In this document: piece after piece, positions 5,473 through 16,321 of the stretch
Numbering within the stretch: position 1 is the first letter of the stretch
Layout of the letters: each line of letters starts with the position of its first letter
From: Escherichia coli
GTDB lineage: Bacteria; Pseudomonadota; Gammaproteobacteria; Enterobacterales; Enterobacteriaceae
Assembly: GCF_003334815.1 (NCBI RefSeq)
Contig: NZ_QOWO01000025.1
Reading direction: 5' to 3' (one strand)
DNA length: 64,000 bases
The notes under the pieces: model-generated
Database searches by the model: none
What the model saw: only the letters and a program-made list of their open reading frames with translations
What the model was told of the DNA's origin: nothing
Translations under genes and position numbers: made by a program

Positions 5473-8149
5473 CGAACCCTTACGTCCCGACCCCGATCGT
5501 CTGCTGGAACAAACTGCCGCGCCGCATCGGGGGAAGCTGAAAGTTTTCTTCGGTGCCTGTGCAGGCGTCGGGAAGACCTGGGCGATGCTGGCAGAAGCCC
5601 AGCGACTGCGGGCGCAAGGGCTGGATATTGTGGTTGGCGTGGTAGAAACCCACGGGCGAAAAGATACCGCCGCCATGCTGGAAGGGCTGGCTGTTCTGCC
5701 GTTAAAACGCCAGGCGTACCGTGGGCGGCATATCAGCGAGTTTGATCTCGATGCCGCCCTCGCCCGCCGCCCGGCGCTGATCTTAATGGACGAACTGGCG
5801 CACAGTAATGCGCCAGGTTCCCGTCATCCCAAACGCTGGCAGGATATCGAAGAACTGCTGGAAGCTGGCATTGATGTTTTCACTACCGTCAACGTTCAGC
5901 ATCTGGAAAGTCTGAATGATGTGGTCAGCGGCGTCACCGGAATTCAGGTACGGGAAACCGTGCCCGATCCTTTTTTCGATGCCGCCGACGACGTGGTGCT
6001 GGTGGACTTGCCCCCGGACGATCTGCGCCAGCGGCTGAAAGAAGGCAAAGTCTATATTGCCGGGCAGGCGGAGCGCGCCATTGAACATTTTTTCCGCAAA
6101 GGTAATCTGATCGCCCTGCGCGAACTGGCACTGCGCCGTACTGCCGATCGCGTTGATGAGCAAATGCGCGCCTGGCGGGGGCATCCTGGCGAAGAGAAAG
6201 TGTGGCACACGCGCGACGCGATCCTTTTATGCATCGGCCATAACACCGGCAGCGAAAAACTGGTCCGCGCAGCGGCGCGGCTGGCGTCACGGCTGGGTAG
6301 CGTCTGGCACGCGGTGTATGTTGAAACCCCTGCCCTGCACCGCTTACCGGAAAAAAAACGTCGGGCAATTCTCAGCGCCTTACGTCTGGCGCAGGAACTG
6401 GGCGCGGAGACGGCAACACTTTCTGATCCAGCGGAAGAGAAAGCGGTAGTGCGTTATGCCCGTGAACATAATCTCGGCAAGATTATTCTCGGTCGCCCGG
6501 CCTCGCGCCGCTGGTGGCGTCGGGAAACGTTTGCTGACCGACTGGCGCGCATCGCCCCCGATCTCGATCAGGTGCTGGTCGCGCTTGATGAACCACCCGC
6601 CCGCACGATTAACAACGCGCCGGATAACCGCTCTTTTAAAGACAAGTGGCGTGTACAAATTCAGGGATGCGTGGTTGCCGCCGCGTTATGCGCCGTTATC
6701 ACCTTAATTGCCATGCAGTGGCTGATGGCGTTTGATGCCGCCAACCTGGTGATGCTGTATCTGCTTGGCGTGGTGGTGGTGGCGCTATTTTATGGACGCT
6801 GGCCTTCAGTGGTTGCCACCGTCATTAATGTAGTGAGTTTCGATCTCTTTTTTATCGCCCCACGCGGCACGCTCGCCGTCTCTGATGTGCAATATCTGCT
6901 GACCTTCGCGGTGATGTTAACCGTCGGGCTGGTGATCGGGAACCTTACTGCTGGCGTGCGTTATCAGGCGCGGGTAGCCCGTTACCGCGAGCAACGCACA
7001 CGGCACTTATATGAAATGTCGAAAGCTCTGGCGGTGGGCCGCAGTCCGCAGGATATCGCTGCCACCAGCGAACAATTTATTGCCTCCACGTTTCATGCCC
7101 GCAGTCAGGTGTTGTTGCCCGATGACAACGGTAAATTGCAGCCGTTAACACATCCGCAAGGAATGACGCCGTGGGACGATGCCATCGCGCAGTGGAGTTT
7201 TGATAAAGGCCTGCCTGCGGGCGCGGGCACCGACACGTTACCCGGTGTACCGTACCAGATTTTGCCGCTAAAAAGCGGCGAGAAAACCTACGGGCTGGTG
7301 GTGGTGGAGCCGGGGAATCTGCGCCAGTTGATGATCCCGGAACAGCAGCGCCTGCTGGAGACGTTTACGCTGTTAGTCGCCAATGCCCTTGAGCGGCTGA
7401 CGCTAACCGCCAGCGAAGAACAGGCGCGGATGGCAAGCGAACGTGAACAGATCCGCAACGCCCTGCTGGCGGCGCTTTCGCATGATTTACGCACGCCGCT
7501 TACGGTGCTGTTTGGTCAGGCAGAAATCTTAACGCTCGATCTGGCAAGCGAAGGATCACCCCACGCCCGCCAGGCCAGCGAGATCCGTCAGCATGTGCTG
7601 AACACTACCCGACTGGTGAATAATCTACTGGATATGGCGCGAATTCAGTCCGGCGGCTTTAATTTGAAGAAAGAGTGGTTAACGCTGGAAGAAGTAGTCG
7701 GCAGCGCGCTGCAAATGCTGGAACCGGGTTTATCGTCGCCCATCAATCTTTCTCTGCCAGAACCGCTGACCTTAATCCACGTTGACGGGCCACTCTTTGA
7801 ACGGGTGCTGATTAATCTGCTGGAGAACGCGGTGAAATATGCGGGTGCGCAGGCCGAAATTGGTATCGATGCCCACGTTGAGGGCGAAAATCTACAACTG
7901 GATGTCTGGGATAACGGCCCCGGTCTTCCGCCAGGCCAGGAGCAGACGATATTTGATAAGTTTGCTCGCGGGAATAAAGAGTCGGCAGTACCGGGGGTAG
8001 GGCTTGGACTGGCAATTTGTCGGGCGATAGTGGATGTACACGGGGGCACTATTACCGCGTTCAACCGACCGGAAGGTGGTGCCTGTTTTCGTGTTACACT
8101 TCCCCAGCAAACTGCCCCTGAACTTGAAGAATTTCATGAGGATATGTGA
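5465..8149 (+). CDS. kdpD: Sensor histidine kinase KdpD
   Basis: 894-aa product starting [16 protein letters not shown]; Usp-like and TM regions, H-box SHDLRTPL, HATPase motifs; overlaps kdpC end and kdpE start. Confidence 0.95.
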
Positions 8150-8823
8150 CAAACGTTCTGATTGTTGAAGATGAACAGGCTATTCGTCGCTTTCTGCGCA
8201 CGGCGCTGGAGGGCGACGGGATGCGCGTCTTTGAGGCCGAAACGCTGCAACGCGGCTTGCTGGAAGCGGCAACCCGTAAGCCAGATTTGATTATTCTCGA
8301 TCTCGGCCTGCCCGATGGTGATGGGATTGAGTTTATCCGCGACCTGCGCCAGTGGAGCGCGGTGCCGGTGATTGTGCTTTCCGCACGCAGCGAAGAGAGC
8401 GACAAAATCGCCGCGCTGGATGCCGGAGCGGATGATTATCTGAGTAAGCCGTTTGGCATTGGCGAATTGCAGGCCCGTCTGCGCGTCGCATTACGCCGCC
8501 ACTCTGCCACCACCGCGCCCGATCCGCTGGTAAAATTTTCCGATGTTACCGTCGATTTAGCCGCCCGCGTGATTCACCGGGGTGAGGAAGAGGTGCATCT
8601 CACACCAATTGAGTTCCGCCTGCTGGCGGTGCTGCTCAACAATGCCGGAAAAGTACTCACCCAGCGCCAGCTCCTTAACCAGGTGTGGGGGCCAAACGCG
8701 GTCGAACACAGTCACTATTTGCGTATTTATATGGGACATCTGCGACAAAAACTGGAACAGGATCCCGCCCGCCCACGCCATTTCATTACTGAAACCGGTA
8801 TTGGCTATCGGTTTATGCTTTGA
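8146..8823 (+). CDS. kdpE: Response regulator KdpE (OmpR family)
   Basis: 225-aa [20 protein letters not shown]...; receiver domain plus winged-helix C-terminus; 4-bp overlap with kdpD. Confidence 0.95.
   Translation: MTNVLIVEDEQAIRRFLRTALEGDGMRVFEAETLQRGLLEAATRKPDLIILDLGLPDGDGIEFIRDLRQWSAVPVIVLSARSEESDKIAALDAGADDYLSKPFGIGELQARLRVALRRHSATTAPDPLVKFSDVTVDLAARVIHRGEEEVHLTPIEFRLLAVLLNNAGKVLTQRQLLNQVWGPNAVEHSHYLRIYMGHLRQKLEQDPARPRHFITETGIGYRFML
8694..8823 (+). repeat. Direct repeat copy 1 (3' end of kdpE)
   Basis: About 130 bp, roughly 92% identical to 13029-13158 by manual alignment. Confidence 0.85.
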
Positions 8824-8858
8824 ATATTAATTTTAATACAGCCTGCCTTTTATTAATT

Positions 8859-8888
8859 AAAGCCGTAATAATAAATACGGCTTTTTAT
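8859..8888 (+). terminator. Rho-independent terminator after kdpE
   Basis: Hairpin agccgta...tacggct followed by a T-run. Confidence 0.55.
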
Positions 8889-9056
8889 CTTAAACAACAC
8901 ACAAAAATAACAATTCAATATTTTATATTACTGAGTAAAAAGCTCATCATTAAATAAATTAAGATTGATCATTTTTTATTGATCACCTTCACAGTTCAAC
9001 CGTATTTCCTGGATAGAATATCTTCACCTTCATTCACATCAGGAAAGGTAAATTAA

Positions 9057-9161
9057 ATGGAAAATAACAGCCGCACTATGCCCCATATAAGGCGGACAAC
9101 TCATATTATGAAGTTTGCTCATCGCAATAGCTTCGACTTTCACTTCTTCAATGCCCGTTAG
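9057..9161 (+). CDS. speFL: speF leader peptide (ornithine-sensing ribosome arrest peptide SpeFL)
   Basis: 34 codons translating to MENNSRTMPHIRRTTHIMKFAHRNSFDFHFFNAR, matching the recalled SpeFL sequence; sits in the long speF leader. Confidence 0.8.
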   Translation: MENNSRTMPHIRRTTHIMKFAHRNSFDFHFFNAR

Positions 9162-9418
9162 TCTACCGACTAAGGGCACTTCAGCGTACAGGTCTTCCTG
9201 ACTCTCTGTATTACAGGCATATGCCTGTATTCCGCAGTGCTCATTCTCTGTTAACCCTTGTATTATCAGCCACCTGACTGGTAAGGGTTTCTGCATTCTG
9301 AAAAAAGCAATCTACCTGATTTATTTATCAGCGGGGTAACTTTGCTTTTTTCCGGCACGATCGATTTCTCATTCGAGAAATTGAGGACCTGCTATTACCT
9401 AAAATAAAGAGATGAAAA

Positions 9419-11617
9419 ATGTCAAAATTAAAAATTGCGGTTAGTGATTCTTGCCCGTACTGTTTTACCACGCAGCGAGAATGTATCTACATTAATGAAA
9501 GTCGTAATATCGATGTGGCGGCAATAGTTTTATCGCTCAACGATGTTACATGCGGAAAACTCGATGAAATCGATGCCACGGGTTATGGCATCCCGGTATT
9601 TATTGCTACTGAAAATCAAGAACGTGTACCCGCAGAGTATTTGCCCCGTATTTCGGGTGTCTTTGAGAATTGCGAATCGCGACGAGAATTTTATGGTCGC
9701 CAGTTAGAAACCGCTGCCAGCCATTATGAAACTCAACTGCGCCCACCTTTCTTCCGCGCACTGGTCGATTATGTCAATCAAGGTAACAGCGCGTTTGATT
9801 GCCCTGGTCATCAGGGCGGCGAATTTTTCCGTCGCCATCCGGCGGGGAATCAGTTTGTGGAATACTTTGGTGAGGCGCTGTTCCGTGCCGACTTGTGCAA
9901 CGCCGACGTAGCGATGGGCGATCTGCTGATTCACGAAGGCGCGCCATGCATTGCACAGCAACATGCGGCAAAAGTGTTTAATGCCGATAAAACCTACTTC
10001 GTTTTAAATGGCACTTCATCTTCTAACAAAGTGGTTTTAAACGCCCTGCTAACACCGGGTGATCTGGTGCTGTTTGATCGCAATAACCACAAATCTAACC
10101 ACCACGGAGCGTTGCTACAGGCTGGTGCAACACCGGTTTATCTGGAAACGGCACGTAACCCGTATGGCTTTATCGGTGGCATTGATGCGCACTGTTTTGA
10201 AGAAAGTTACCTGCGTGAGCTGATCGCGGAAGTCGCACCGCAGCGGGCAAAAGAGGCTCGTCCTTTCCGCCTCGCTGTGATTCAGTTAGGCACCTACGAC
10301 GGTACGATTTATAACGCCCGCCAAGTGGTGGATAAAATTGGTCATCTGTGTGACTACATCCTGTTTGACTCAGCATGGGTCGGCTATGAACAGTTTATTC
10401 CGATGATGGCGGACTGTTCGCCGCTGTTGCTGGATCTTAATGAGAACGATCCGGGTATTCTGGTTACGCAATCTGTGCATAAACAACAGGCTGGTTTTTC
10501 TCAGACTTCACAAATTCATAAAAAAGACAGCCACATCAAAGGGCAACAGCGTTATGTACCGCACAAACGCATGAACAACGCCTTTATGATGCACGCCTCC
10601 ACCAGCCCGTTCTATCCGCTGTTTGCCGCACTGGATATCAACGCCAAAATGCATGAAGGTGTCAGCGGTCGTAATATGTGGATGGATTGTGTGGTAAATG
10701 GCATTAATGCCCGCAAACTGATCCTCGATAACTGTCAGCATATTCGTCCGTTCGTACCTGAACTGGTGGATGGTAAACCCTGGCAGTCGTATGAAACAGC
10801 GCAAATTGCGGTTGATCTGCGCTTCTTCCAGTTTGTACCAGGGGAACACTGGCATTCTTTTGAAGGCTATGCAGAGAATCAATACTTTGTCGATCCATGC
10901 AAACTGTTGCTGACAACCCCAGGTATTGATGCACGTAACGGCGAATATGAAGCGTTCGGTGTACCCGCGACGATTCTTGCTAACTTCCTGCGCGAAAATG
11001 GCGTAGTGCCGGAAAAATGCGATCTTAACTCCATCCTCTTCCTGCTGACTCCGGCAGAAGATATGGCCAAACTTCAGCAACTTGTTGCCCTGCTGGTACG
11101 CTTCGAAAAACTGCTTGAGTCCGACGCGCCATTAGCAGAAGTGCTACCTTCCATCTACAAACAGCATGAAGAGCGCTACGCCGGTTATACCCTGCGTCAG
11201 TTGTGTCAGGAAATGCATGATTTGTATGCCCGCCACAACGTGAAACAACTGCAAAAAGAGATGTTCCGTAAGGAGCACTTCCCACGCGTCAGCATGAATC
11301 CGCAAGAAGCCAACTACGCCTATTTACGCGGTGAAGTGGAACTGGTTCGTCTGCCGGATGCAGAAGGCCGTATCGCTGCCGAAGGTGCGCTTCCTTATCC
11401 TCCGGGTGTGCTGTGTGTTGTTCCGGGTGAAATCTGGGGTGGTGCTGTTCTGCGTTACTTCAGCGCTCTGGAAGAAGGGATCAACCTGCTGCCAGGTTTT
11501 GCACCGGAGCTGCAGGGTGTCTATATCGAAGAACATGATGGTCGTAAGCAAGTTTGGTGCTATGTCATCAAGCCTCGTGATGCGCAAAGCACCCTGTTGA
11601 AAGGGGAAAAATTATGA
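9419..11617 (+). CDS. speF: Inducible ornithine decarboxylase
   Basis: 732-aa ORF, PLP-dependent Orn/Lys/Arg decarboxylase family; followed by potE with 4-bp overlap. Confidence 0.95.
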   Translation: MSKLKIAVSDSCPYCFTTQRECIYINESRNIDVAAIVLSLNDVTCGKLDEIDATGYGIPVFIATENQERVPAEYLPRISGVFENCESRREFYGRQLETAASHYETQLRPPFFRALVDYVNQGNSAFDCPGHQGGEFFRRHPAGNQFVEYFGEALFRADLCNADVAMGDLLIHEGAPCIAQQHAAKVFNADKTYFVLNGTSSSNKVVLNALLTPGDLVLFDRNNHKSNHHGALLQAGATPVYLETARNPYGFIGGIDAHCFEESYLRELIAEVAPQRAKEARPFRLAVIQLGTYDGTIYNARQVVDKIGHLCDYILFDSAWVGYEQFIPMMADCSPLLLDLNENDPGILVTQSVHKQQAGFSQTSQIHKKDSHIKGQQRYVPHKRMNNAFMMHASTSPFYPLFAALDINAKMHEGVSGRNMWMDCVVNGINARKLILDNCQHIRPFVPELVDGKPWQSYETAQIAVDLRFFQFVPGEHWHSFEGYAENQYFVDPCKLLLTTPGIDARNGEYEAFGVPATILANFLRENGVVPEKCDLNSILFLLTPAEDMAKLQQLVALLVRFEKLLESDAPLAEVLPSIYKQHEERYAGYTLRQLCQEMHDLYARHNVKQLQKEMFRKEHFPRVSMNPQEANYAYLRGEVELVRLPDAEGRIAAEGALPYPPGVLCVVPGEIWGGAVLRYFSALEEGINLLPGFAPELQGVYIEEHDGRKQVWCYVIKPRDAQSTLLKGEKL

Positions 11618-12933
11618 GTCAGGCTAAATCGAACAAAATGGGCGTCGTTCAGTTAACCATACTGACGATGGTCAACATGATGGGCTCCGGTATCATCATG
11701 CTGCCGACAAAGCTTGCCGAAGTCGGGACAATCTCAATTATCTCCTGGCTGGTGACAGCCGTAGGCTCAATGGCACTGGCATGGGCATTCGCAAAATGCG
11801 GTATGTTCAGCCGTAAATCAGGCGGTATGGGCGGTTATGCCGAGTATGCTTTCGGTAAATCCGGTAACTTTATGGCGAACTATACCTACGGCGTCTCACT
11901 GCTGATTGCTAACGTCGCGATTGCTATTTCGGCGGTTGGTTACGGCACCGAACTGCTCGGCGCGAGTTTGTCGCCAGTGCAGATTGGTCTTGCGACCATC
12001 GGGGTGCTGTGGATTTGTACCGTGGCTAACTTTGGTGGTGCGCGCATTACCGGGCAAATCAGTAGCATTACCGTGTGGGGGGTCATTATTCCGGTCGTCG
12101 GTCTGTGCATTATTGGCTGGTTCTGGTTTAGCCCGACGCTGTACGTTGATTCCTGGAATCCGCATCATGCACCGTTCTTCAGTGCGGTAGGTTCTTCCAT
12201 CGCTATGACGCTGTGGGCTTTTCTTGGTCTGGAGTCTGCGTGTGCGAATACTGATGTAGTGGAAAACCCGGAACGTAATGTGCCAATCGCGGTACTCGGC
12301 GGTACGTTAGGTGCGGCGGTGATTTATATCGTCTCCACCAACGTGATTGCCGGGATTGTGCCAAATATGGAGCTGGCAAATTCAACGGCACCATTTGGTC
12401 TGGCCTTCGCGCAGATGTTCACGCCGGAAGTGGGTAAAGTCATTATGGCGCTGATGGTGATGTCCTGCTGCGGTTCGCTACTTGGCTGGCAGTTCACCAT
12501 TGCCCAGGTGTTTAAATCTTCATCTGATGAAGGCTACTTCCCTAAAATTTTCTCCCGTGTAACCAAAGTGGATGCACCGGTGCAGGGAATGTTGACCATT
12601 GTGATTATTCAGAGTGGATTGGCACTGATGACCATTAGCCCGTCGCTAAACAGTCAGTTCAACGTGCTGGTTAACCTGGCCGTGGTGACCAATATCATTC
12701 CGTATATTCTGTCAATGGCGGCATTAGTCATTATTCAGAAGGTCGCTAATGTGCCCCCCTCAAAAGCGAAAGTTGCAAACTTTGTTGCTTTTGTTGGCGC
12801 GATGTATAGCTTTTATGCGCTGTACTCATCCGGGGAAGAAGCCATGCTGTACGGTTCCATCGTGACCTTCCTTGGTTGGACACTGTATGGTCTGGTATCA
12901 CCACGCTTTGAACTGAAAAATAAACACGGTTAA
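11614..12933 (+). CDS. potE: Putrescine-ornithine antiporter
   Basis: 439-aa polytopic APC-family transporter MSQAKSNKMGVVQLTILT... Confidence 0.95.
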   Translation: MSQAKSNKMGVVQLTILTMVNMMGSGIIMLPTKLAEVGTISIISWLVTAVGSMALAWAFAKCGMFSRKSGGMGGYAEYAFGKSGNFMANYTYGVSLLIANVAIAISAVGYGTELLGASLSPVQIGLATIGVLWICTVANFGGARITGQISSITVWGVIIPVVGLCIIGWFWFSPTLYVDSWNPHHAPFFSAVGSSIAMTLWAFLGLESACANTDVVENPERNVPIAVLGGTLGAAVIYIVSTNVIAGIVPNMELANSTAPFGLAFAQMFTPEVGKVIMALMVMSCCGSLLGWQFTIAQVFKSSSDEGYFPKIFSRVTKVDAPVQGMLTIVIIQSGLALMTISPSLNSQFNVLVNLAVVTNIIPYILSMAALVIIQKVANVPPSKAKVANFVAFVGAMYSFYALYSSGEEAMLYGSIVTFLGWTLYGLVSPRFELKNKHG

Positions 12934-12948
12934 TAAAACAAAGTAAAA

Positions 12949-12978
12949 AAGGGCGATTGAATGATCGCCCTTTCTGTT
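12949..12978 (+). terminator. Rho-independent terminator after potE
   Basis: Hairpin gggcgat(tgaatg)atcgccc followed by a T-rich run. Confidence 0.6.
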
Positions 12979-13028
12979 TGTTGGCAAATAGTTCGTTATT
13001 TATGCCGCATCCGGCAGATGTAGGGTCT

Positions 13029-13158
13029 AAACGCGATCGAACACAGCAACTATTTGCGTAATTATATGGGGCATCTGCGACAAAAACTGGAACAGGATCC
13101 GGCCCGGCCTCGCCATTTTATTACTGAAACCGGTATTGGGTATCGGTTTATGCTTTGA
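13029..13158 (+). pseudogene. Orphan kdpE 3' fragment (direct repeat copy 2)
   Basis: In-frame it encodes NAIEHSNYLRNYMGHLRQKLEQDPARPRHFITETGIGYRFML-stop versus the KdpE C-terminus; 10 nt differences over 43 codons (7 synonymous, 3 nonsynonymous); no start codon or upstream gene body. Confidence 0.8.
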
Positions 13159-13281
13159 AAAAAGTGGCAATGTATGGATAAAGTCATTTTTTATTCAAAT
13201 ATAAGGAACTTAATATTTAAAAAATGTTCCATACAATTCCTCATCATAAATGACACCGTAGCACACAAGGAGCAAGTAGCG

Positions 13282-13932
13282 ATGCGTGAAATGAATCAGT
13301 TAGTAAATACTGAAGATTCAGCCTGGCCAATAATCCAGAACTGGTTAAAAGACGCCACAAACCATACCGAACTCTTACCGGTTAATAAAGATTTAGCCGA
13401 AACCGCACTTTATCAATTACAGGTGACAACAAAATCACCGATGGGTGCGCTTGTCTATGGCTCCGGAGGTCTGCTGATTGATAATGGTTGGTTACGCATA
13501 GCAGGATCTGGTCACCCCCGGTTGCCACGAGATCCAGTAAGTTGGACACAACGCCCTGAATTCGCAGGCGTGCGGGCTTTACCCATCGCTGACGATGTCG
13601 CAGGGGGAATTTTTGCTCTTAATGGTGGCGATCTTGGGGAAGATACTGGCTGCGTTTATTATTTTGCGCCAGATACGCTGAATTGGGAAAGTCTGGAAGT
13701 TGGATATTCTGAGTTTCTTCAGTGGGCATTATCCGGTGATTTAGATACCTTCTATGAAAATGTACGATGGCAGCAATGGCGAGAAGACGTAATAAAATTA
13801 TCGGCAACGGAAGCCTTCACGTTCTACCCTTTCTTATGGGTACAAAGTGAAGAAGCAAGAACAAGAAAAGTTATTTCGCTTACTGAACTCTGGGAAATGC
13901 AGTATCAAATGAAAGAAACATTCACGCAATAA
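13282..13932 (+). CDS. ybfG: DUF2625-family protein YbfG
   Basis: 216-aa product from ATG at 13282 with AGGAG ribosome-binding site 7 nt upstream; six-frame ORF 13174-13932 trimmed. Confidence 0.65.
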   Translation: MREMNQLVNTEDSAWPIIQNWLKDATNHTELLPVNKDLAETALYQLQVTTKSPMGALVYGSGGLLIDNGWLRIAGSGHPRLPRDPVSWTQRPEFAGVRALPIADDVAGGIFALNGGDLGEDTGCVYYFAPDTLNWESLEVGYSEFLQWALSGDLDTFYENVRWQQWREDVIKLSATEAFTFYPFLWVQSEEARTRKVISLTELWEMQYQMKETFTQ

Positions 13933-13972
13933 GACATGTTCAGGTCCGGGTTTCATTCCCGGACTCACTATT

Positions 13973-14467
13973 TTAATGTGTATTTATCGCTTTCAATTCT
14001 TGCTGGCAATTTTCTGACTGGCAGCGTCGTAACTCAATAATCCCGACATGCATCATCGAGCCAAAAAATCCGCTTTCGCTGACATAATCCTCATTGACTA
14101 TCGGTCGAGTGCCGGGCTTGCCCTGGCAAACCCGCATAAAAAATGAGGTGTAGCATTGCCAACCGGGATTTAAACCGACCTTTTCTTGTGCTGACATATT
14201 ATGAAGATAAGTAAGTTCTTTTTCGTTCCCGCCTGACAACTGCCAGCGGCGGGTATTATCAGGTAAGTTATCACCACGGCAATTTGTCTTACACCGGAAA
14301 GGTGCAATATTTACCGCAATGCTACCCGTTAATCCTCTGGTTTTATCTTTAGGGGTCAGTAACCAGTCGCCAGCTAATGATGATTGTTCAGGTTGGGCGC
14401 ATGCAGTCAGCAGTAATGTGGCGGTAATTAGTGACACTATGACGACCAGACTCCTGTTGGTCTTCAT
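13973..14467 (-). CDS. ybfP: Lipoprotein YbfP
   Basis: 164-aa ORF with signal peptide and lipobox (LLLTAC); Cys-rich mature part. Confidence 0.75.
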   Translation of the reverse strand: MKTNRSLVVIVSLITATLLLTACAQPEQSSLAGDWLLTPKDKTRGLTGSIAVNIAPFRCKTNCRGDNLPDNTRRWQLSGGNEKELTYLHNMSAQEKVGLNPGWQCYTSFFMRVCQGKPGTRPIVNEDYVSESGFFGSMMHVGIIELRRCQSENCQQELKAINTH

Positions 14468-14527
14468 TGGGATTTCCTTGAGCTACTCAGTTTGTTGACA
14501 AAGTGTTCGTTGTTTTTGCCGGATGCG

Positions 14528-14625
14528 GCGTGAACGCCTTATCCGGCCTACAAAATCGCTTAAATTCAATATATTGCACCATCCTCGTAGGCCTGATAAG
14601 CGTAGCGCATCAGGCAATTCTGTGT
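14528..14625. repeat. REP/BIME palindromic elements
   Basis: gccggatgcggcgtgaacgccttatccggcctac and inverted partner ...taggcctgataagcgtagcgcatcaggc. Confidence 0.85.
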
Positions 14626-14637
14626 TTGTCATACGTA

Positions 14638-14670
14638 AAAAAGGGCGATCTTGCGACCGCCCTTTTTTTA
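14638..14670 (-). terminator. Rho-independent terminator downstream of pgm
   Basis: Hairpin gggcgatcttgcgaccgccc flanked by A/T runs. Confidence 0.55.
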
Positions 14671-14680
14671 TTAAATGTGT

Positions 14681-16321
14681 TTACGCGTTTTTCAGAACTT
14701 CGCTAACAATCTCAACCGCTTCTTTCTCAATCTGCTTGCGATGTTCTTCACCGAGGAAGCTTTCGCAGTAGATCTTATATGCGTCTTCCGTGCCTGACGG
14801 ACGCGCGGCGAACCAGCCGTTGTCAGTCATCACTTTCAGACCGCCAATAGAAGCACCGTTGCCCGGAGCAGCAGTCAGGCGCGCGGTGATCGGGTCACCT
14901 GCCAGGGTGCTGGCGCTCACCATTTCCGGAGACAGCTTAGACAGCGCCGCTTTTTGTGCGGAAGTCGCAGCTGCCTGCAAACGGTTGTAGCTCGGCGCAC
15001 CAAAGCGTTTTGCCAGTTCGTTGTAGTGTTCCTGCGGGTTCTTACCGGTGACAGCGGTGATTTCCGCCGCCAGCAGACACATGATGATGCCGTCTTTGTC
15101 GGTGGACCACGGCGTGCCGTCGAAACGCAGGAAGGAAGCCCCTGCACTCTCTTCGCCGCCAAAGCCGAAGCTGCCGTCGAACAGACCATCGACAAACCAT
15201 TTGAAACCTACCGGGACTTCTACCAGTTTACGGCCCAAGTCGTTGACCACACGGTCGATCATCGCAGATGAAACCAGCGTTTTACCGACGGCAACATCTT
15301 TGCCCCACTGCGGACGATGCTGGAACAGGTAATTGATTGCCACCGCCAGGTAGTGGTTCGGATTCATCAAACCTGCCGGAGTGACGATACCGTGACGGTC
15401 ATAATCCGGGTCGTTAGCAAACGCCAGATCGAACTTATCACGCAGTGCCAGCAGGCCCGCCATCGCACACTCGGAGGAGCAGTCCATACGGATCGCGCCG
15501 TCTTTATCAAGGTGCATAAAGCGGAAGGTTTGATCGACCTGATCGTTAACGATAGTCAGGTTGAGGTTGTAATACTCGCCAATACGCTTCCAGTATTCGA
15601 TACCGGAACCGCCCAGCGGATCAACGCCCAGCGTCAGGCCCGCTTTCTGAATCGCGGCCATATCAACGATATCGGCCAGACCTTCCACGAACGGCTGCAC
15701 CAGATCCTGCTCTTTCACATGACCGGATGCCATCGCTTCGTCGAGGGAGATACGCTTCACGCCTTTCAGGCCATCGGCCAGCAGTGCGTTGGCCCTGTCT
15801 TCCACCACTTTAGTGACGTTGGTATCAGCCGGGCCACCATTTGGCGGATTGTATTTGATTCCACCATCTTCCGGCGGGTTATGGGACGGTGTAATCACGA
15901 TACCGTCTGCCAGCGGGCCACCTTTTTTATTGTGAACCAGGATGGCATTGGAAACGGCAGGCGTCGGGGTGAAGCCATTGTTTTCCTGCACAATGACATC
16001 AACGCCGTTCGCTGCCAGCACTTCCAGAACGGAAATGAATGCAGGTTCGGACAGGGCGTGAGTATCTTTACCCACATAGCAAGGGCCAGTGATGCCGTTT
16101 TTCGCACGTTCTTCAGCAATTGCCTGAGCGATCGCCAGAATGTGCGGCTCGTTAAAGCTGTGGCGCGCTGCACTGCCACGGTGACCGGAAGTACCGAATT
16201 TCACCGCGTGCTCCGCATTCCCTGCTTCTGGTTTCAGTACATAATATTGCGCCGTCAGTTGGGCGACGTTAATCAAATCACTCTGTTGTGCAGGTTGGCC
16301 TGCACGATTGTGGATTGCCAT
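14681..16321 (-). CDS. pgm: Phosphoglucomutase
   Basis: 546-aa product starting [16 protein letters not shown]; active-site TSGHRG motif; six-frame ORF trimmed by 17 codons. Confidence 0.95.

What the first reader, a model, noticed from the sequence alone, without database searches (positions are those of the whole stretch)
8694..13158. Diverged 130-bp copy of the kdpE 3' end brackets the speFL-speF-potE cassette
The last 130 bp of kdpE (8694-8823) recur downstream of potE (13029-13158) at about 92% identity, in the same orientation, including the stop codon. Read in the kdpE frame, the second copy has 10 substitutions over 43 codons with no indels or stops: 7 synonymous and 3 conservative nonsynonymous. 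A decaying local duplicate would accumulate mostly nonsynonymous changes and indels. The excess of synonymous changes suggests both copies diverged while each was part of a functional kdpE, meaning they come from different lineages. This fits acquisition of the acid-inducible ornithine decarboxylase/antiporter cassette by a Campbell-type homologous crossover using the kdpE tail, leaving an orphan kdpE fragment. The cassette flanks (8824-9056 and 13159-13281) are strongly AT-rich.
Basis: seen in the sequence. Interest (0 to 1): 0.6.

Follow-up and report, generated by a model that had tools for sequence, protein, structure and literature searches.

The report
Orphan kdpE tail marks recombination scar
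The second kdpE tail is a real, decaying gene fragment left at an old recombination joint that fused two alternative versions of the E. coli kdpE–pgm region; it travels with the small ybfG–ybfP segment rather than with speF–potE, and it is ordinary genome scarring.

Summary
The repeat is real: 8680-8824 recurs at 13015-13159 (145 nt, 90%). The copy extends 14 nt further 5' and carries an in-frame TAG. RefSeq already calls it a pseudogene.

speFL-speF-potE sits between kdpE and pgm with a single tail in Salmonella, C. koseri, E. albertii, E. fergusonii and about 59% of E. coli genomes. The second tail occurs only in the ~34% of E. coli genomes that also carry ybfG-ybfP. About 6.5% lack the cassette altogether.

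The long allele has three nested direct-repeat pairs: the two tails, T1/T2 and R1/R2. The 5' end of the fragment abuts a flipped REP arm. This fits one illegitimate REP-to-kdpE joint between a cassette-bearing allele (still found in E. fergusonii) and a cassette-less allele carrying ybfG-ybfP.

All seven synonymous differences lie at sites that vary among functional E. coli kdpE alleles; four look like a gene-conversion patch. The fragment's own changes are six nonsynonymous or nonsense to one synonymous, and sister clades are frameshifted. Interest is low to moderate.

The parts
8146..8823 (+). kdpE, the intact response-regulator gene; its last 144 nt plus 1 (8680-8824) form copy 1 of the repeat
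   Evidence: ORF list; RefSeq annotation of identical loci; repeat
8824..9720 (+). H1 block: the K-12-type kdpE-speFL spacer, speFL (9057-9161), the leader and the first ~300 nt of speF. It is 20-59% divergent from the alternative E. coli haplotype H2. H2 is the haplotype shared with E. albertii and E. fergusonii
   Evidence: Sliding-window divergence; H1 present in 1696 of 5426 genomes; leader 85% identical to C. koseri against 74% to H2; E. fergusonii 95% and E. albertii 85% to H2, both ~75% to H1
9419..12933 (+). speF (9419-11617) and potE (11614-12933), the cassette bracketed by the two tails
   Evidence: ORFs; annotation
12943..12973 (.). T1, the potE terminator hairpin (gtaaaaaagggcgat tgaatg atcgccc ttt). 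It is a paralogue of T2 and the same type as the sole potE/pgm terminator of E. albertii
   Evidence: Terminator scan; alignments
12974..13014 (.). R1, a ~41-nt spacer repeat ending in a flipped REP arm (gccgcatccggc, 13004-13015). The illegitimate joint with kdpE' lies at 13014/13015 with 1 nt of microhomology
   Evidence: Local alignment R1/R2 scores 26 against shuffles 8.1 +/- 1.2, 34/42 identical; comparison with P-type alleles L024 and L044
13015..13159 (+). kdpE', the orphan 3' fragment of kdpE (copy 2). It has no start codon and no receiver domain, and carries an in-frame TAG at 13021-13023
   Evidence: PGAP labels it 'winged helix-turn-helix domain-containing protein, incomplete, missing N-terminus' and flags it as a pseudogene; frameshifted in other clades
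13159..13281 (+). AT-rich spacer upstream of ybfG; the likely ybfG promoter region
   Evidence: GC 30.9%; two promoter-like hexamer pairs, not above shuffle expectation
13282..13932 (+). ybfG (DUF2625), intact in this window
   Evidence: ORF; Pfam PF10946 on homologues; closest non-E. coli homologues <=57% identical; GC 44.4%
13973..14467 (-). ybfP, an orphan lipoprotein gene
   Evidence: ORF; annotation 'lipoprotein' / 'hypothetical protein'; only 27 homologues, and every named hit or examined locus is E. coli
14487..14528 (.). R2, the partner of R1, running into REP1
14518..14615 (.). REP pair (BIME-like): gccggatgcggcgtgaacgccttatccggcctac ... gtaggcctgataagcgtagcgcatcaggc
   Evidence: Sequence. 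The same pair lies next to kdpE in cassette-less alleles L017-L019 and next to R in P-type alleles. 'REP' is assigned from the known consensus, from memory
14635..14669 (.). T2, the pgm-proximal terminator hairpin and partner of T1. The single terminator of short-allele E. coli has the T2 loop
14681..16321 (-). pgm, the right-hand conserved anchor of the variable region
   Evidence: Annotation of identical loci

Best explanation
Window 13015-13159 is a non-functional relic of the kdpE 3' end. RefSeq already annotates it as a pseudogene.

It marks a single illegitimate joint. A REP hairpin downstream of potE was fused to position -145 of a kdpE gene that, in a different allele of the same locus, was followed directly by ybfG-ybfP.

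Two alternative configurations of the kdpE-pgm interval were thereby merged:
- P: kdpE-speFL-speF-potE-T1-R-REP-REP-T2-pgm. This form is still present in E. fergusonii and in rare E. coli.
- Q: kdpE-ybfG-ybfP-R-REP-REP-T2-pgm, a cassette-less form. Q is inferred. Its relatives C and D are observed.

The product is the long allele B, found in this window and in K-12. It has three nested direct-repeat pairs: tail/tail', R1/R2 and T1/T2.

Shown:
- the structures of the alleles and their frequencies;
- the position of the joint at the REP arm;
- the decay of the fragment.

Inferred:
- that a single event produced B;
- that Q existed as a free-standing allele.

Unresolved: which allele was recipient and which was donor, and whether the intermediate was linear or circular.

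The synonymous excess arises because the fragment was copied from, and later patched by gene conversion from, functional kdpE alleles that differ from the resident K-12-type allele at synonymous sites. The fragment's own mutations are mostly nonsynonymous, as expected for neutral decay.

Today the repeats act only as recombination substrates. Tail/tail' crossover deletes speF-potE. T1/T2 crossover deletes the ybfG-ybfP segment.
For: Linkage:
- ~1827-1844 of 5426 complete E. coli genomes carry kdpE', always with ybfG-ybfP.
- Most other genomes have potE followed by one terminator and pgm, with none of the three.

Outgroups with the cassette and a single tail:
- Salmonella and C. koseri;
- E. 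albertii and E. fergusonii.

Allele P exists:
- E. fergusonii L044 and E. coli L024 have potE-T1-R-REP-REP-T2-pgm.
- The only terminator in E. albertii is T1-like.

Cassette-less alleles exist:
- C: kdpE-REP pair-ybfP-R-REP pair-T2-pgm, ~247 genomes including strain 042.
- D: kdpE-REP pair-T2-pgm.
- C plus D total 354 genomes.

Joint and repeats:
- R1/R2 are significantly similar.
- The REP arm beside kdpE' is inverted relative to the one in R2.

Decay of the fragment:
- Both fragment clades share TGG>TAG, H>N, I>N and one synonymous change.
- Clade B-i adds V>M, P>L and V>I.
- Clades B-ii and B-iii add a 1-nt deletion and further nonsynonymous changes.

Source of the synonymous differences:
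- C33, G57, G87, G93, T96, T105 and G126 are all seen in functional kdpE alleles.
- L028 kdpE has six of them; L019 has five; L001 has G87, G93, T96 and G126 (four).
- Fragments of clades B-ii and B-iii lack G87, T96 and T105; their 1-nt deletion lies in the C-run around 93-96, so G93 cannot be scored there. This marks G87/G93/T96/T105 as a conversion patch into B-i.

Repeat-mediated derivatives:
- L020 and L021 are tail/tail' deletions nested in B-i.
- In L030 the short-allele terminator is a hybrid of the B-iii left flank and the B-ii T2.
Against: - A free-standing ancestral Q allele (full kdpE followed by ybfG-ybfP, not nested in B) was not found. The two single-tail kdpE-ybfG genomes look secondary.
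- R1 is ~20% diverged from every other R copy, far more than the fragment's 3-5% private divergence. A simple join of P to Q does not explain this without extra assumptions, such as a divergent P-type donor or a complex template switch at the REP.
- Only 145 nt and a few dozen alleles were compared. Allele counts come from BLAST coverage classes, not from a phylogeny.
- Other Escherichia species were sampled as one or two genomes each.
Confidence: 0.7

Rival explanations
1. A lineage with kdpE-ybfG-ybfP-pgm and no cassette (re)acquired speFL-speF-potE. The vehicle was a circular or linear donor fragment that crossed over homologously in the kdpE tail. The recipient's own tail was left behind as the orphan. 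In this reading the cassette, or at least its ends, is foreign.
For: - Cassette-less E. coli alleles are real and fairly common (354 of 5426).
- The left end of the cassette in this window (H1, 8824-~9720) is as divergent from the native Escherichia haplotype H2 as Salmonella is, and it begins exactly after the kdpE stop.
- H1 usually co-occurs with the long allele: 10 of 12 H1 loci examined, and 1696 H1 genomes against ~1830 B genomes.
- R1 at the right end is also unusually diverged.
- A 145-nt tail is a better RecA substrate than the ~45-nt R repeat. This is an inference.
- The private A96 and C126 states of the K-12-type tail match Salmonella only.
Against: - The cassette is ancestral at this site in the genus and beyond, with a single tail.
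- Its right end (potE 3' end and T1) is native. T1 is identical to that of E. fergusonii, and potE is 0-3% from other E. coli.
- H1 and the long allele are separable. L001 is B with H2; L030 and L033 are short allele with H1.
- There is no integrase or other mobility gene in the cassette.
- The single-tail kdpE-ybfG genomes are secondary.
Confidence: 0.2
2. An in-situ tandem duplication occurred within one genome. A REP-mediated duplication ran from kdpE -145 to the REP after R. The interior of one copy was later replaced or deleted. Both tails then start identical and diverge locally.
For: - The joint (REP arm fused to an upstream position, in direct orientation) has the geometry of a tandem-duplication join point.
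- REPs are known duplication endpoints (from memory: Shyamala et al. 1990).
- Short-tract gene conversion between the copies is evident.
Against: - The two 'copies' have entirely different interiors: speFL-speF-potE-T1 against ybfG-ybfP. A second, allele-replacing event is therefore needed.
- R1 and R2 differ by ~19% while the tails' private divergence is 3-5%. The repeats were thus already different when joined.
Confidence: 0.08
3. The fragment is retained because it has a function. Candidates are a small protein (34-aa ORF at 13054-13158, or a 28-aa ORF from the internal ATG), a decoy KdpE-related element, or part of the ybfG 5' region.
For: - In the window's clade all six changes 3' of codon I>N are synonymous.
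- The fragment sits directly upstream of the ybfG promoter region.
Against: - Sister clades carry a 1-nt deletion inside that ORF plus G>R, P>L, A>V and T>A changes.
- The six synonymous states are explained by conversion from functional kdpE.
- About two thirds of E. coli lack the fragment.
- There is no Rfam hit.
- Promoter-like matches are not above shuffle expectation.
Confidence: 0.02

Closest known systems
Annotated gene remnants (pseudogene fragments). RefSeq/PGAP labels this one 'winged helix-turn-helix domain-containing protein, incomplete, missing N-terminus'. From memory, the curated K-12 annotation calls this fragment ybfI, 'pseudogene, KdpE homolog'; I could not verify that here.
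   Same: A truncated 3' piece of a response-regulator gene with no start codon and a disabling stop. It is frameshifted in other strains.
   Different: The annotation says nothing about origin. Here the fragment is shown to be the left end of a ~1.7-kb presence/absence segment and to lie at a REP joint.
REP/BIME-associated rearrangement join points (REP sequences at tandem-duplication endpoints; from memory, Shyamala, Schneider and Ames 1990)
   Same: The novel joint lies at the base of a REP stem with ~1 nt of microhomology. The REP arm is inverted, as after a template switch across the hairpin.
   Different: The two units joined are not identical copies but two different alleles of the locus. 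No experimental demonstration exists for this case.
Homology-facilitated illegitimate recombination (one homologous anchor plus one illegitimate end; from memory, de Vries and Wackernagel 2002)
   Same: The composite allele needs exactly one illegitimate joint plus one crossover in shared flanking homology (kdp operon, kdpE tail, R/REP or pgm).
   Different: That mechanism was described for natural transformation in Acinetobacter and pneumococcus. In E. coli the vehicle (transduction or conjugation) is unknown, and the event here is ancient.
Campbell-type integration of a circular element by a single homologous crossover
   Same: Direct repeats of the homology segment flank an inserted block. 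Repeat-mediated excision products are seen (L020, L021).
   Different: There is no integrase and no att site. Two different repeat pairs (tails, or R1/R2) could each be 'the' crossover site. The block between the tails is ancestral at this site in related species.
Small low-GC genomic islets with orphan genes inserted between core genes
   Same: ybfG-ybfP has GC 44-45% between flanks of 55-57%. Its distribution is patchy. The nearest YbfG homologues are <=57% identical and YbfP is essentially E. coli-only.
   Different: No tRNA, integrase or IS borders this islet. It carries a piece of its previous neighbour, kdpE.

Membership tests
Pseudogene / gene remnant of kdpE (OmpR-family response regulator, C-terminal winged-helix part) | Significant nucleotide homology to the parent gene over the retained part | tested here: met
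   145 nt, 90% identity, E = 5e-53
Pseudogene / gene remnant of kdpE (OmpR-family response regulator, C-terminal winged-helix part) | Truncation: no start codon and no receiver domain | tested here: met
   Homology stops at 13015. The upstream sequence is R1/REP, not kdpE. PGAP notes 'missing N-terminus'.
Pseudogene / gene remnant of kdpE (OmpR-family response regulator, C-terminal winged-helix part) | Disabling lesions and a neutral substitution pattern on its own branches | tested here: met
   In-frame TAG in all copies. A 1-nt deletion in clades B-ii and B-iii. Private changes in the window's lineage are 6 nonsynonymous or nonsense to 1 synonymous.
Campbell-type (single homologous crossover) insertion of the speFL-speF-potE cassette | Direct repeats of the crossover segment flank the insert | tested here: met
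   The tails at 8680-8824 and 13015-13159 flank the cassette. However, R1/R2 equally flank kdpE'-ybfG-ybfP.
Campbell-type (single homologous crossover) insertion of the speFL-speF-potE cassette | An ancestral empty site exists: one tail followed directly by the right-hand flank (ybfG) | tested here: inconclusive
   Two of 5426 genomes have kdpE-ybfG with one tail. Their ybfG side is 99.4-100% identical to clade B-i, and L020 is 100% identical to the window in kdpD-kdpE. They therefore look like recent deletions.
Campbell-type (single homologous crossover) insertion of the speFL-speF-potE cassette | The insert is absent from this site in related lineages that lack the duplication | tested here: not met
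   Salmonella, C. koseri, E. albertii, E. fergusonii and ~59% of E. coli have the cassette at this site with a single tail.
Campbell-type (single homologous crossover) insertion of the speFL-speF-potE cassette | A circular intermediate or mobility functions | not testable with these tools
   No integrase or transposase ORF lies between the tails. A transient circle cannot be detected from sequence.
REP-associated illegitimate recombination joint | The novel junction coincides with a REP stem-loop | tested here: met
   gccgcatccggc (13004-15) abuts kdpE' position 1. It is the inverted form of the gccggatgcggc arm found after R in alleles P, C and B-right. REP identity rests on the known consensus, from memory.
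REP-associated illegitimate recombination joint | Both parental arrangements can be identified | tested here: inconclusive
   Parent P was found (L044 E. fergusonii and L024). Parent Q was not found as an independent lineage; only its relatives C and D were.
Horizontally acquired islet (ybfG-ybfP) | Atypical composition, patchy distribution and no close orthologues in sister species | tested here: met
   GC 44-45% against 55-57% in the flanks. Present in ~34% of E. coli for ybfG. Absent from the E. albertii and E. fergusonii loci. The nearest YbfG homologues are <=57% identical. All YbfP hits that carry a source name, and all examined loci, are E. coli.

The most novel reading that the evidence does not exclude
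The K-12-type long allele records the re-acquisition of an ornithine decarboxylase/antiporter cassette from outside Escherichia by an E. coli lineage that had lost it. The crossover would have been inside the kdpE tail. On this reading the H1 block (8824-~9720, with a Citrobacter-like SpeFL leader) and the aberrant R1 are the surviving foreign ends of that cassette. The interior would later have been overwritten by recombination with native alleles.
Probability: 0.2. Interest if true: 0.45.

Novelty: new member of a known kind. Interest (0 to 1): 0.3.

Why it matters
The fragment itself is an already-annotated pseudogene, so little hangs on it.

The value lies in the picture of the locus. The kdpE-pgm interval of E. 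coli is a structurally polymorphic, heavily recombined spot with at least five alleles. Nested direct repeats make both the acid-inducible speF-potE system and the ybfG-ybfP islet recurrently deletable.

About 6.5% of complete E. coli genomes lack speF-potE altogether.

K-12 carries a speFL leader and speF 5' region that are not the native Escherichia version. This may matter to people who use K-12 as the reference for SpeFL-mediated ornithine sensing.

The case is also a caution. A dN/dS far below 1 between a pseudogene and its parent can arise from allelic polymorphism plus gene conversion, without cross-genus transfer and without selection on the fragment.

Tried and rejected
It returned only an E. 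coli-contaminated Collinsella MAG contig and two Paenibacillus loci at 42-44% identity. It gave no context for a donor.
- Looking for a donor through YbfG and YbfP homologues failed. The intermediate hits (77-89%, or 63-71%) were all E. coli or low-quality E. coli assemblies with the same B or C arrangement.
- Identifying one extant kdpE allele as the source of the fragment failed. The fragment is a mosaic, and the best functional allele matches only the 3' two thirds.
- The idea that the 28-34-aa ORF in the fragment is under selection was rejected. Sister clades are frameshifted.
- The idea that H1 and the long allele are one inseparable event was rejected. All four combinations exist.
- The FldA look-up for other Escherichia species returned only E. 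coli. Cluster-member names then gave E. albertii and E. fergusonii.
- Literature searches for ybfG with kdpE, ybfI, b4636, and speF/potE/kdpE/pseudogene found nothing relevant.
- Rfam gave no hit in 8000-15000.
Full report
**1. The observation**

The window is E. coli of the K-12 type. It is 100% identical to MG1655 across 7024-12927.

The repeat finder reports 8680-8824 and 13015-13159 as a 145-nt direct repeat at 90% identity. BLASTN gives E = 5e-53.

Read in the kdpE frame they are 7 synonymous and 3 nonsynonymous. NG86 gives dS 0.31, dN 0.03 and dN/dS 0.10. The binomial p against neutrality is 0.0016.

Two points need correction.
That stretch contains V>M, TGG>TAG (13021-13023), one synonymous change and P>L.
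- The copy therefore does carry a stop codon.

The AT-rich flanks are as described, with GC 25.8% and 30.9%. PGAP annotates the copy as an incomplete winged-helix pseudogene in every RefSeq genome I opened. From memory, the curated K-12 annotation names it ybfI; I could not verify this.

**2. What the second tail travels with**

Among 5426 complete E. coli genomes, 1827-1844 have the stretch potE-kdpE'-ybfG. Most of the rest, for example O157:H7 and strain C9, have potE, one terminator and pgm within 56 bp. They have no kdpE', no ybfG and no ybfP. So kdpE' is the left end of a ~1.7-kb presence/absence segment: kdpE'-ybfG-ybfP-R-REP pair.

The speFL-speF-potE cassette lies between kdpE and pgm with a single tail in:
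- Salmonella and C. koseri;
- E. albertii and E. fergusonii.

C. freundii has kdpE directly next to pgm.

The cassette is therefore old at this site, and the second tail is not its signature.

**3. The allele series in E. coli**

| Allele | Structure | Frequency or examples |
|---|---|---|
| A | kdpE-cassette-T-pgm | ~59% |
| B | the long allele of this window | ~34%; three diverged clades: B-i (window, K-12, L001), B-ii (L005, L009-L013), B-iii (L028) |
| C | kdpE-REP pair-ybfP-R-REP pair-T2-pgm | ~247 genomes, including strain 042 |
| D | kdpE-REP pair-T2-pgm | C plus D = 354 genomes |
| P | kdpE-cassette-T1-R-REP pair-T2-pgm | 2 E. coli genomes; also E. fergusonii |
| kdpE-ybfG single tail | kdpE followed directly by ybfG | 2 genomes |

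There are also IS1-mediated deletions.

**4. Anatomy of allele B**

Besides the two tails there are two further direct-repeat pairs.
- T1 (12943-12973) pairs with T2 (14635-14669).
- R1 (12974-13014) pairs with R2 (14487-14528). Their local alignment scores 26, against 8.1 +/- 1.2 for shuffles.

R1 ends in a REP arm, gccgcatccggc. This is the inverted form of the gccggatgcggc arm that follows R everywhere else. kdpE' begins at the next base, with 1 nt of microhomology.

From potE through R, B is collinear with P. From kdpE' rightwards, B is collinear with a cassette-less allele that carries ybfG-ybfP-R-REP pair-T2-pgm.

The simplest account is one illegitimate joint. The REP after R in a P-type allele was fused to position -145 of the kdpE of a Q-type allele (kdpE-ybfG-ybfP...).

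Polarity comes from within the genus.
- E. albertii has only a T1-like terminator.
- E. fergusonii has P.
- So P predates B.
- The E. coli short allele A has a terminator with the T2 loop. It therefore looks like a T1/T2 deletion product.
- L030 shows such a hybrid directly: the left flank of B-iii joined to the T2 of B-ii.

**5. Why the differences are mostly synonymous**

I aligned the tails of 20 functional E. coli kdpE alleles, three outgroup genera and five fragments, and later added seven more tails: five E. coli alleles and the E. albertii and E. fergusonii tails.

Every one of the seven synonymous differences is at a site that is polymorphic among functional alleles: C33, G57, G87, G93, T96, T105 and G126.
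- The functional kdpE of L028 carries six of them.
- That of L019 carries five.
- That of L001 carries four: G87, G93, T96 and G126.
- The window's own A96 and C126 are private to the K-12-type allele.

Fragments of clades B-ii and B-iii lack G87, T96 and T105. Their 1-nt deletion falls in the C-run around 93-96, so the state at 93 cannot be scored there. Four clustered synonymous changes within 19 nt of a pseudogene, all matching an extant functional haplotype, indicate a gene-conversion patch into B-i.

The fragment's own changes look neutral.
- Shared by all clades: TGG>TAG, GGG>GGT, H>N, I>N.
- B-i only: V>M, P>L, V>I.
- B-ii and B-iii: a 1-nt deletion plus G>R, P>L, A>V, T>A and others.

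In the window's lineage that is six nonsynonymous or nonsense changes to one synonymous change.

The source, however, is E. coli's own allele pool plus conversion, not necessarily another genus.

The kdpE 3' end is unusually polymorphic, at 3-9% among E. coli against 0-5% further upstream. It borders a block of deeply diverged haplotypes, described in section 7.

**6. The predicted single-tail genomes**

A chimeric query of kdpE body plus fragment plus ybfG found three genomes.
- One is an IS1 deletion.
- L020 is 100% identical to the window in kdpD-kdpE and in the ybfG spacer.
- L021 is 99.4-100% identical to B-i on the ybfG side.

Both L020 and L021 are nested within B-i. They are best read as recent deletions of speF-potE by tail/tail' recombination, with the crossover in the last 19-40 nt. 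They demonstrate what the repeat does now. They are not evidence of an ancestral empty site.

**7. A second layer: H1 and H2**

From the base after the kdpE stop (8824) to about speF +300, and to about +1000 against some alleles, the window differs by 20-59% from the alternative E. coli haplotype H2 (L001, L002, L003, L024, L027). That is as much as it differs from Salmonella.

- H2 is the version found in E. fergusonii (95%) and E. albertii (85%).
- H1 is about 75% identical to both.
- H1 occurs in 1696 genomes.
- The H1 speFL-plus-leader region is 85% identical to C. koseri, against 74% to H2.
- H1 SpeFL begins MENNSRTMPH, as in C. koseri.

H1 mostly accompanies B (window, K-12, L005, L011, L028, L029, L031, L034). 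It is separable, however: L001 is B with H2, and L030 and L033 are A with H1.

Clades B-ii and B-iii also keep a 15% diverged block in potE at 12119-12268.

Together with the aberrant R1, which is ~20% diverged from all other R copies, this keeps alive the reading that the cassette in B entered from a divergent donor. I give that reading 0.2.

**8. Direction and mechanism**

Four routes all give B with the same single illegitimate joint:
- a circle excised from Q and integrated into P through R;
- linear DNA with one homologous anchor, in either direction;
- a REP-mediated tandem duplication followed by replacement of the interior.

I cannot separate these with the present data. A true, independently evolving Q allele was not found, and that is the main gap.

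**9. Function**

I find no evidence of any function.
- About two thirds of E. coli genomes lack the fragment.
- It is frameshifted in sister clades.
- There is no Rfam family match.
- Promoter-like matches are at chance level.

**10. Verdict**

The feature is a known kind of thing, a gene remnant at a REP-associated recombination joint, and the remnant itself is already annotated. The allele series and the H1/H2 haplotypes appear undescribed in the literature I could search. They are ordinary genome plasticity rather than a new mechanism. Interest: 0.3.

Noticed in passing
window 8824-~9720 (extending to ~10400 against some alleles): Two deeply diverged haplotypes of the kdpE-speFL spacer, speFL, the leader and the speF 5' end segregate in E. 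coli. The K-12/window type (H1, 1696 of 5426 genomes) is 20-59% from H2, which is the version shared with E. fergusonii and E. albertii. The H1 leader is 85% identical to C. koseri, and H1 SpeFL begins MENNSRT... against MENNNRL... in H2.
   Followed up: partly
L017, L018, L019, L025 (E. coli, including the strain 042 type): About 354 of 5426 complete E. coli genomes (6.5%) have no speFL-speF-potE at all. In these, kdpE (often with a TAG stop) abuts a REP pair, then ybfP or pgm.
   Followed up: partly
window 12119-12268 (potE), compared with L005 and L028: Long-allele clades B-ii and B-iii carry a potE block 15-16% diverged from all other E. coli alleles examined, close to the Salmonella distance of 19%. 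The whole speF-potE region is a patchwork of blocks 5-16% diverged.
   Followed up: no
window 13282-13932 against L023 (MG1655): ybfG (DUF2625) is intact in this window but has an internal stop in MG1655. It is truncated or frameshifted in clades B-ii and B-iii. The window is otherwise identical to MG1655 over 7024-12927.
   Followed up: no
window 13973-14467 (-): ybfP encodes an orphan lipoprotein. Only 27 homologues were found among 5.8 billion clustered proteins. Every hit that carries a source name is E. coli, and both examined loci are E. coli, with identity down to 63% between E. coli alleles. This suggests very fast evolution or decay.
   Followed up: partly
L004, L022, L028, H21, H202: The locus attracts insertion sequences. 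Examples: IS1 deletions running from kdpD or kdpE into the ybfG upstream region, IS200 between ybfP and pgm, ISVsa5 in the ybfG-ybfP segment, and IS1 in the H1 region.
   Followed up: no
L014 15016-15501 (Salmonella): Salmonella has a 161-aa Pyridox_ox_2 gene between potE and pgm, at the position where E. coli has ybfG-ybfP or nothing. The same intergenic slot has been filled independently.
   Followed up: no
L002 8306-8440, L024 2055-2186: In H2 genomes PGAP calls a 44-aa ORF overlapping the start of speFL. It is named 'hypothetical protein' in most genomes and 'TonB-dependent receptor' in one. This is probably an annotation artefact.
   Followed up: no
L006 (JAIJJM010000630.1): A 1.9-kb contig in a 'Collinsella sp.' MAG is 100% identical to E. 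coli kdpE'-ybfG. This is binning contamination.
   Followed up: no
window 8775 and 8805 (positions 96 and 126 of the tail): The K-12-type kdpE tail has two private synonymous states (CCA, GGC). Among the sequences compared these are shared only with Salmonella. The H1 import may have crossed over inside the kdpE tail.
   Followed up: no
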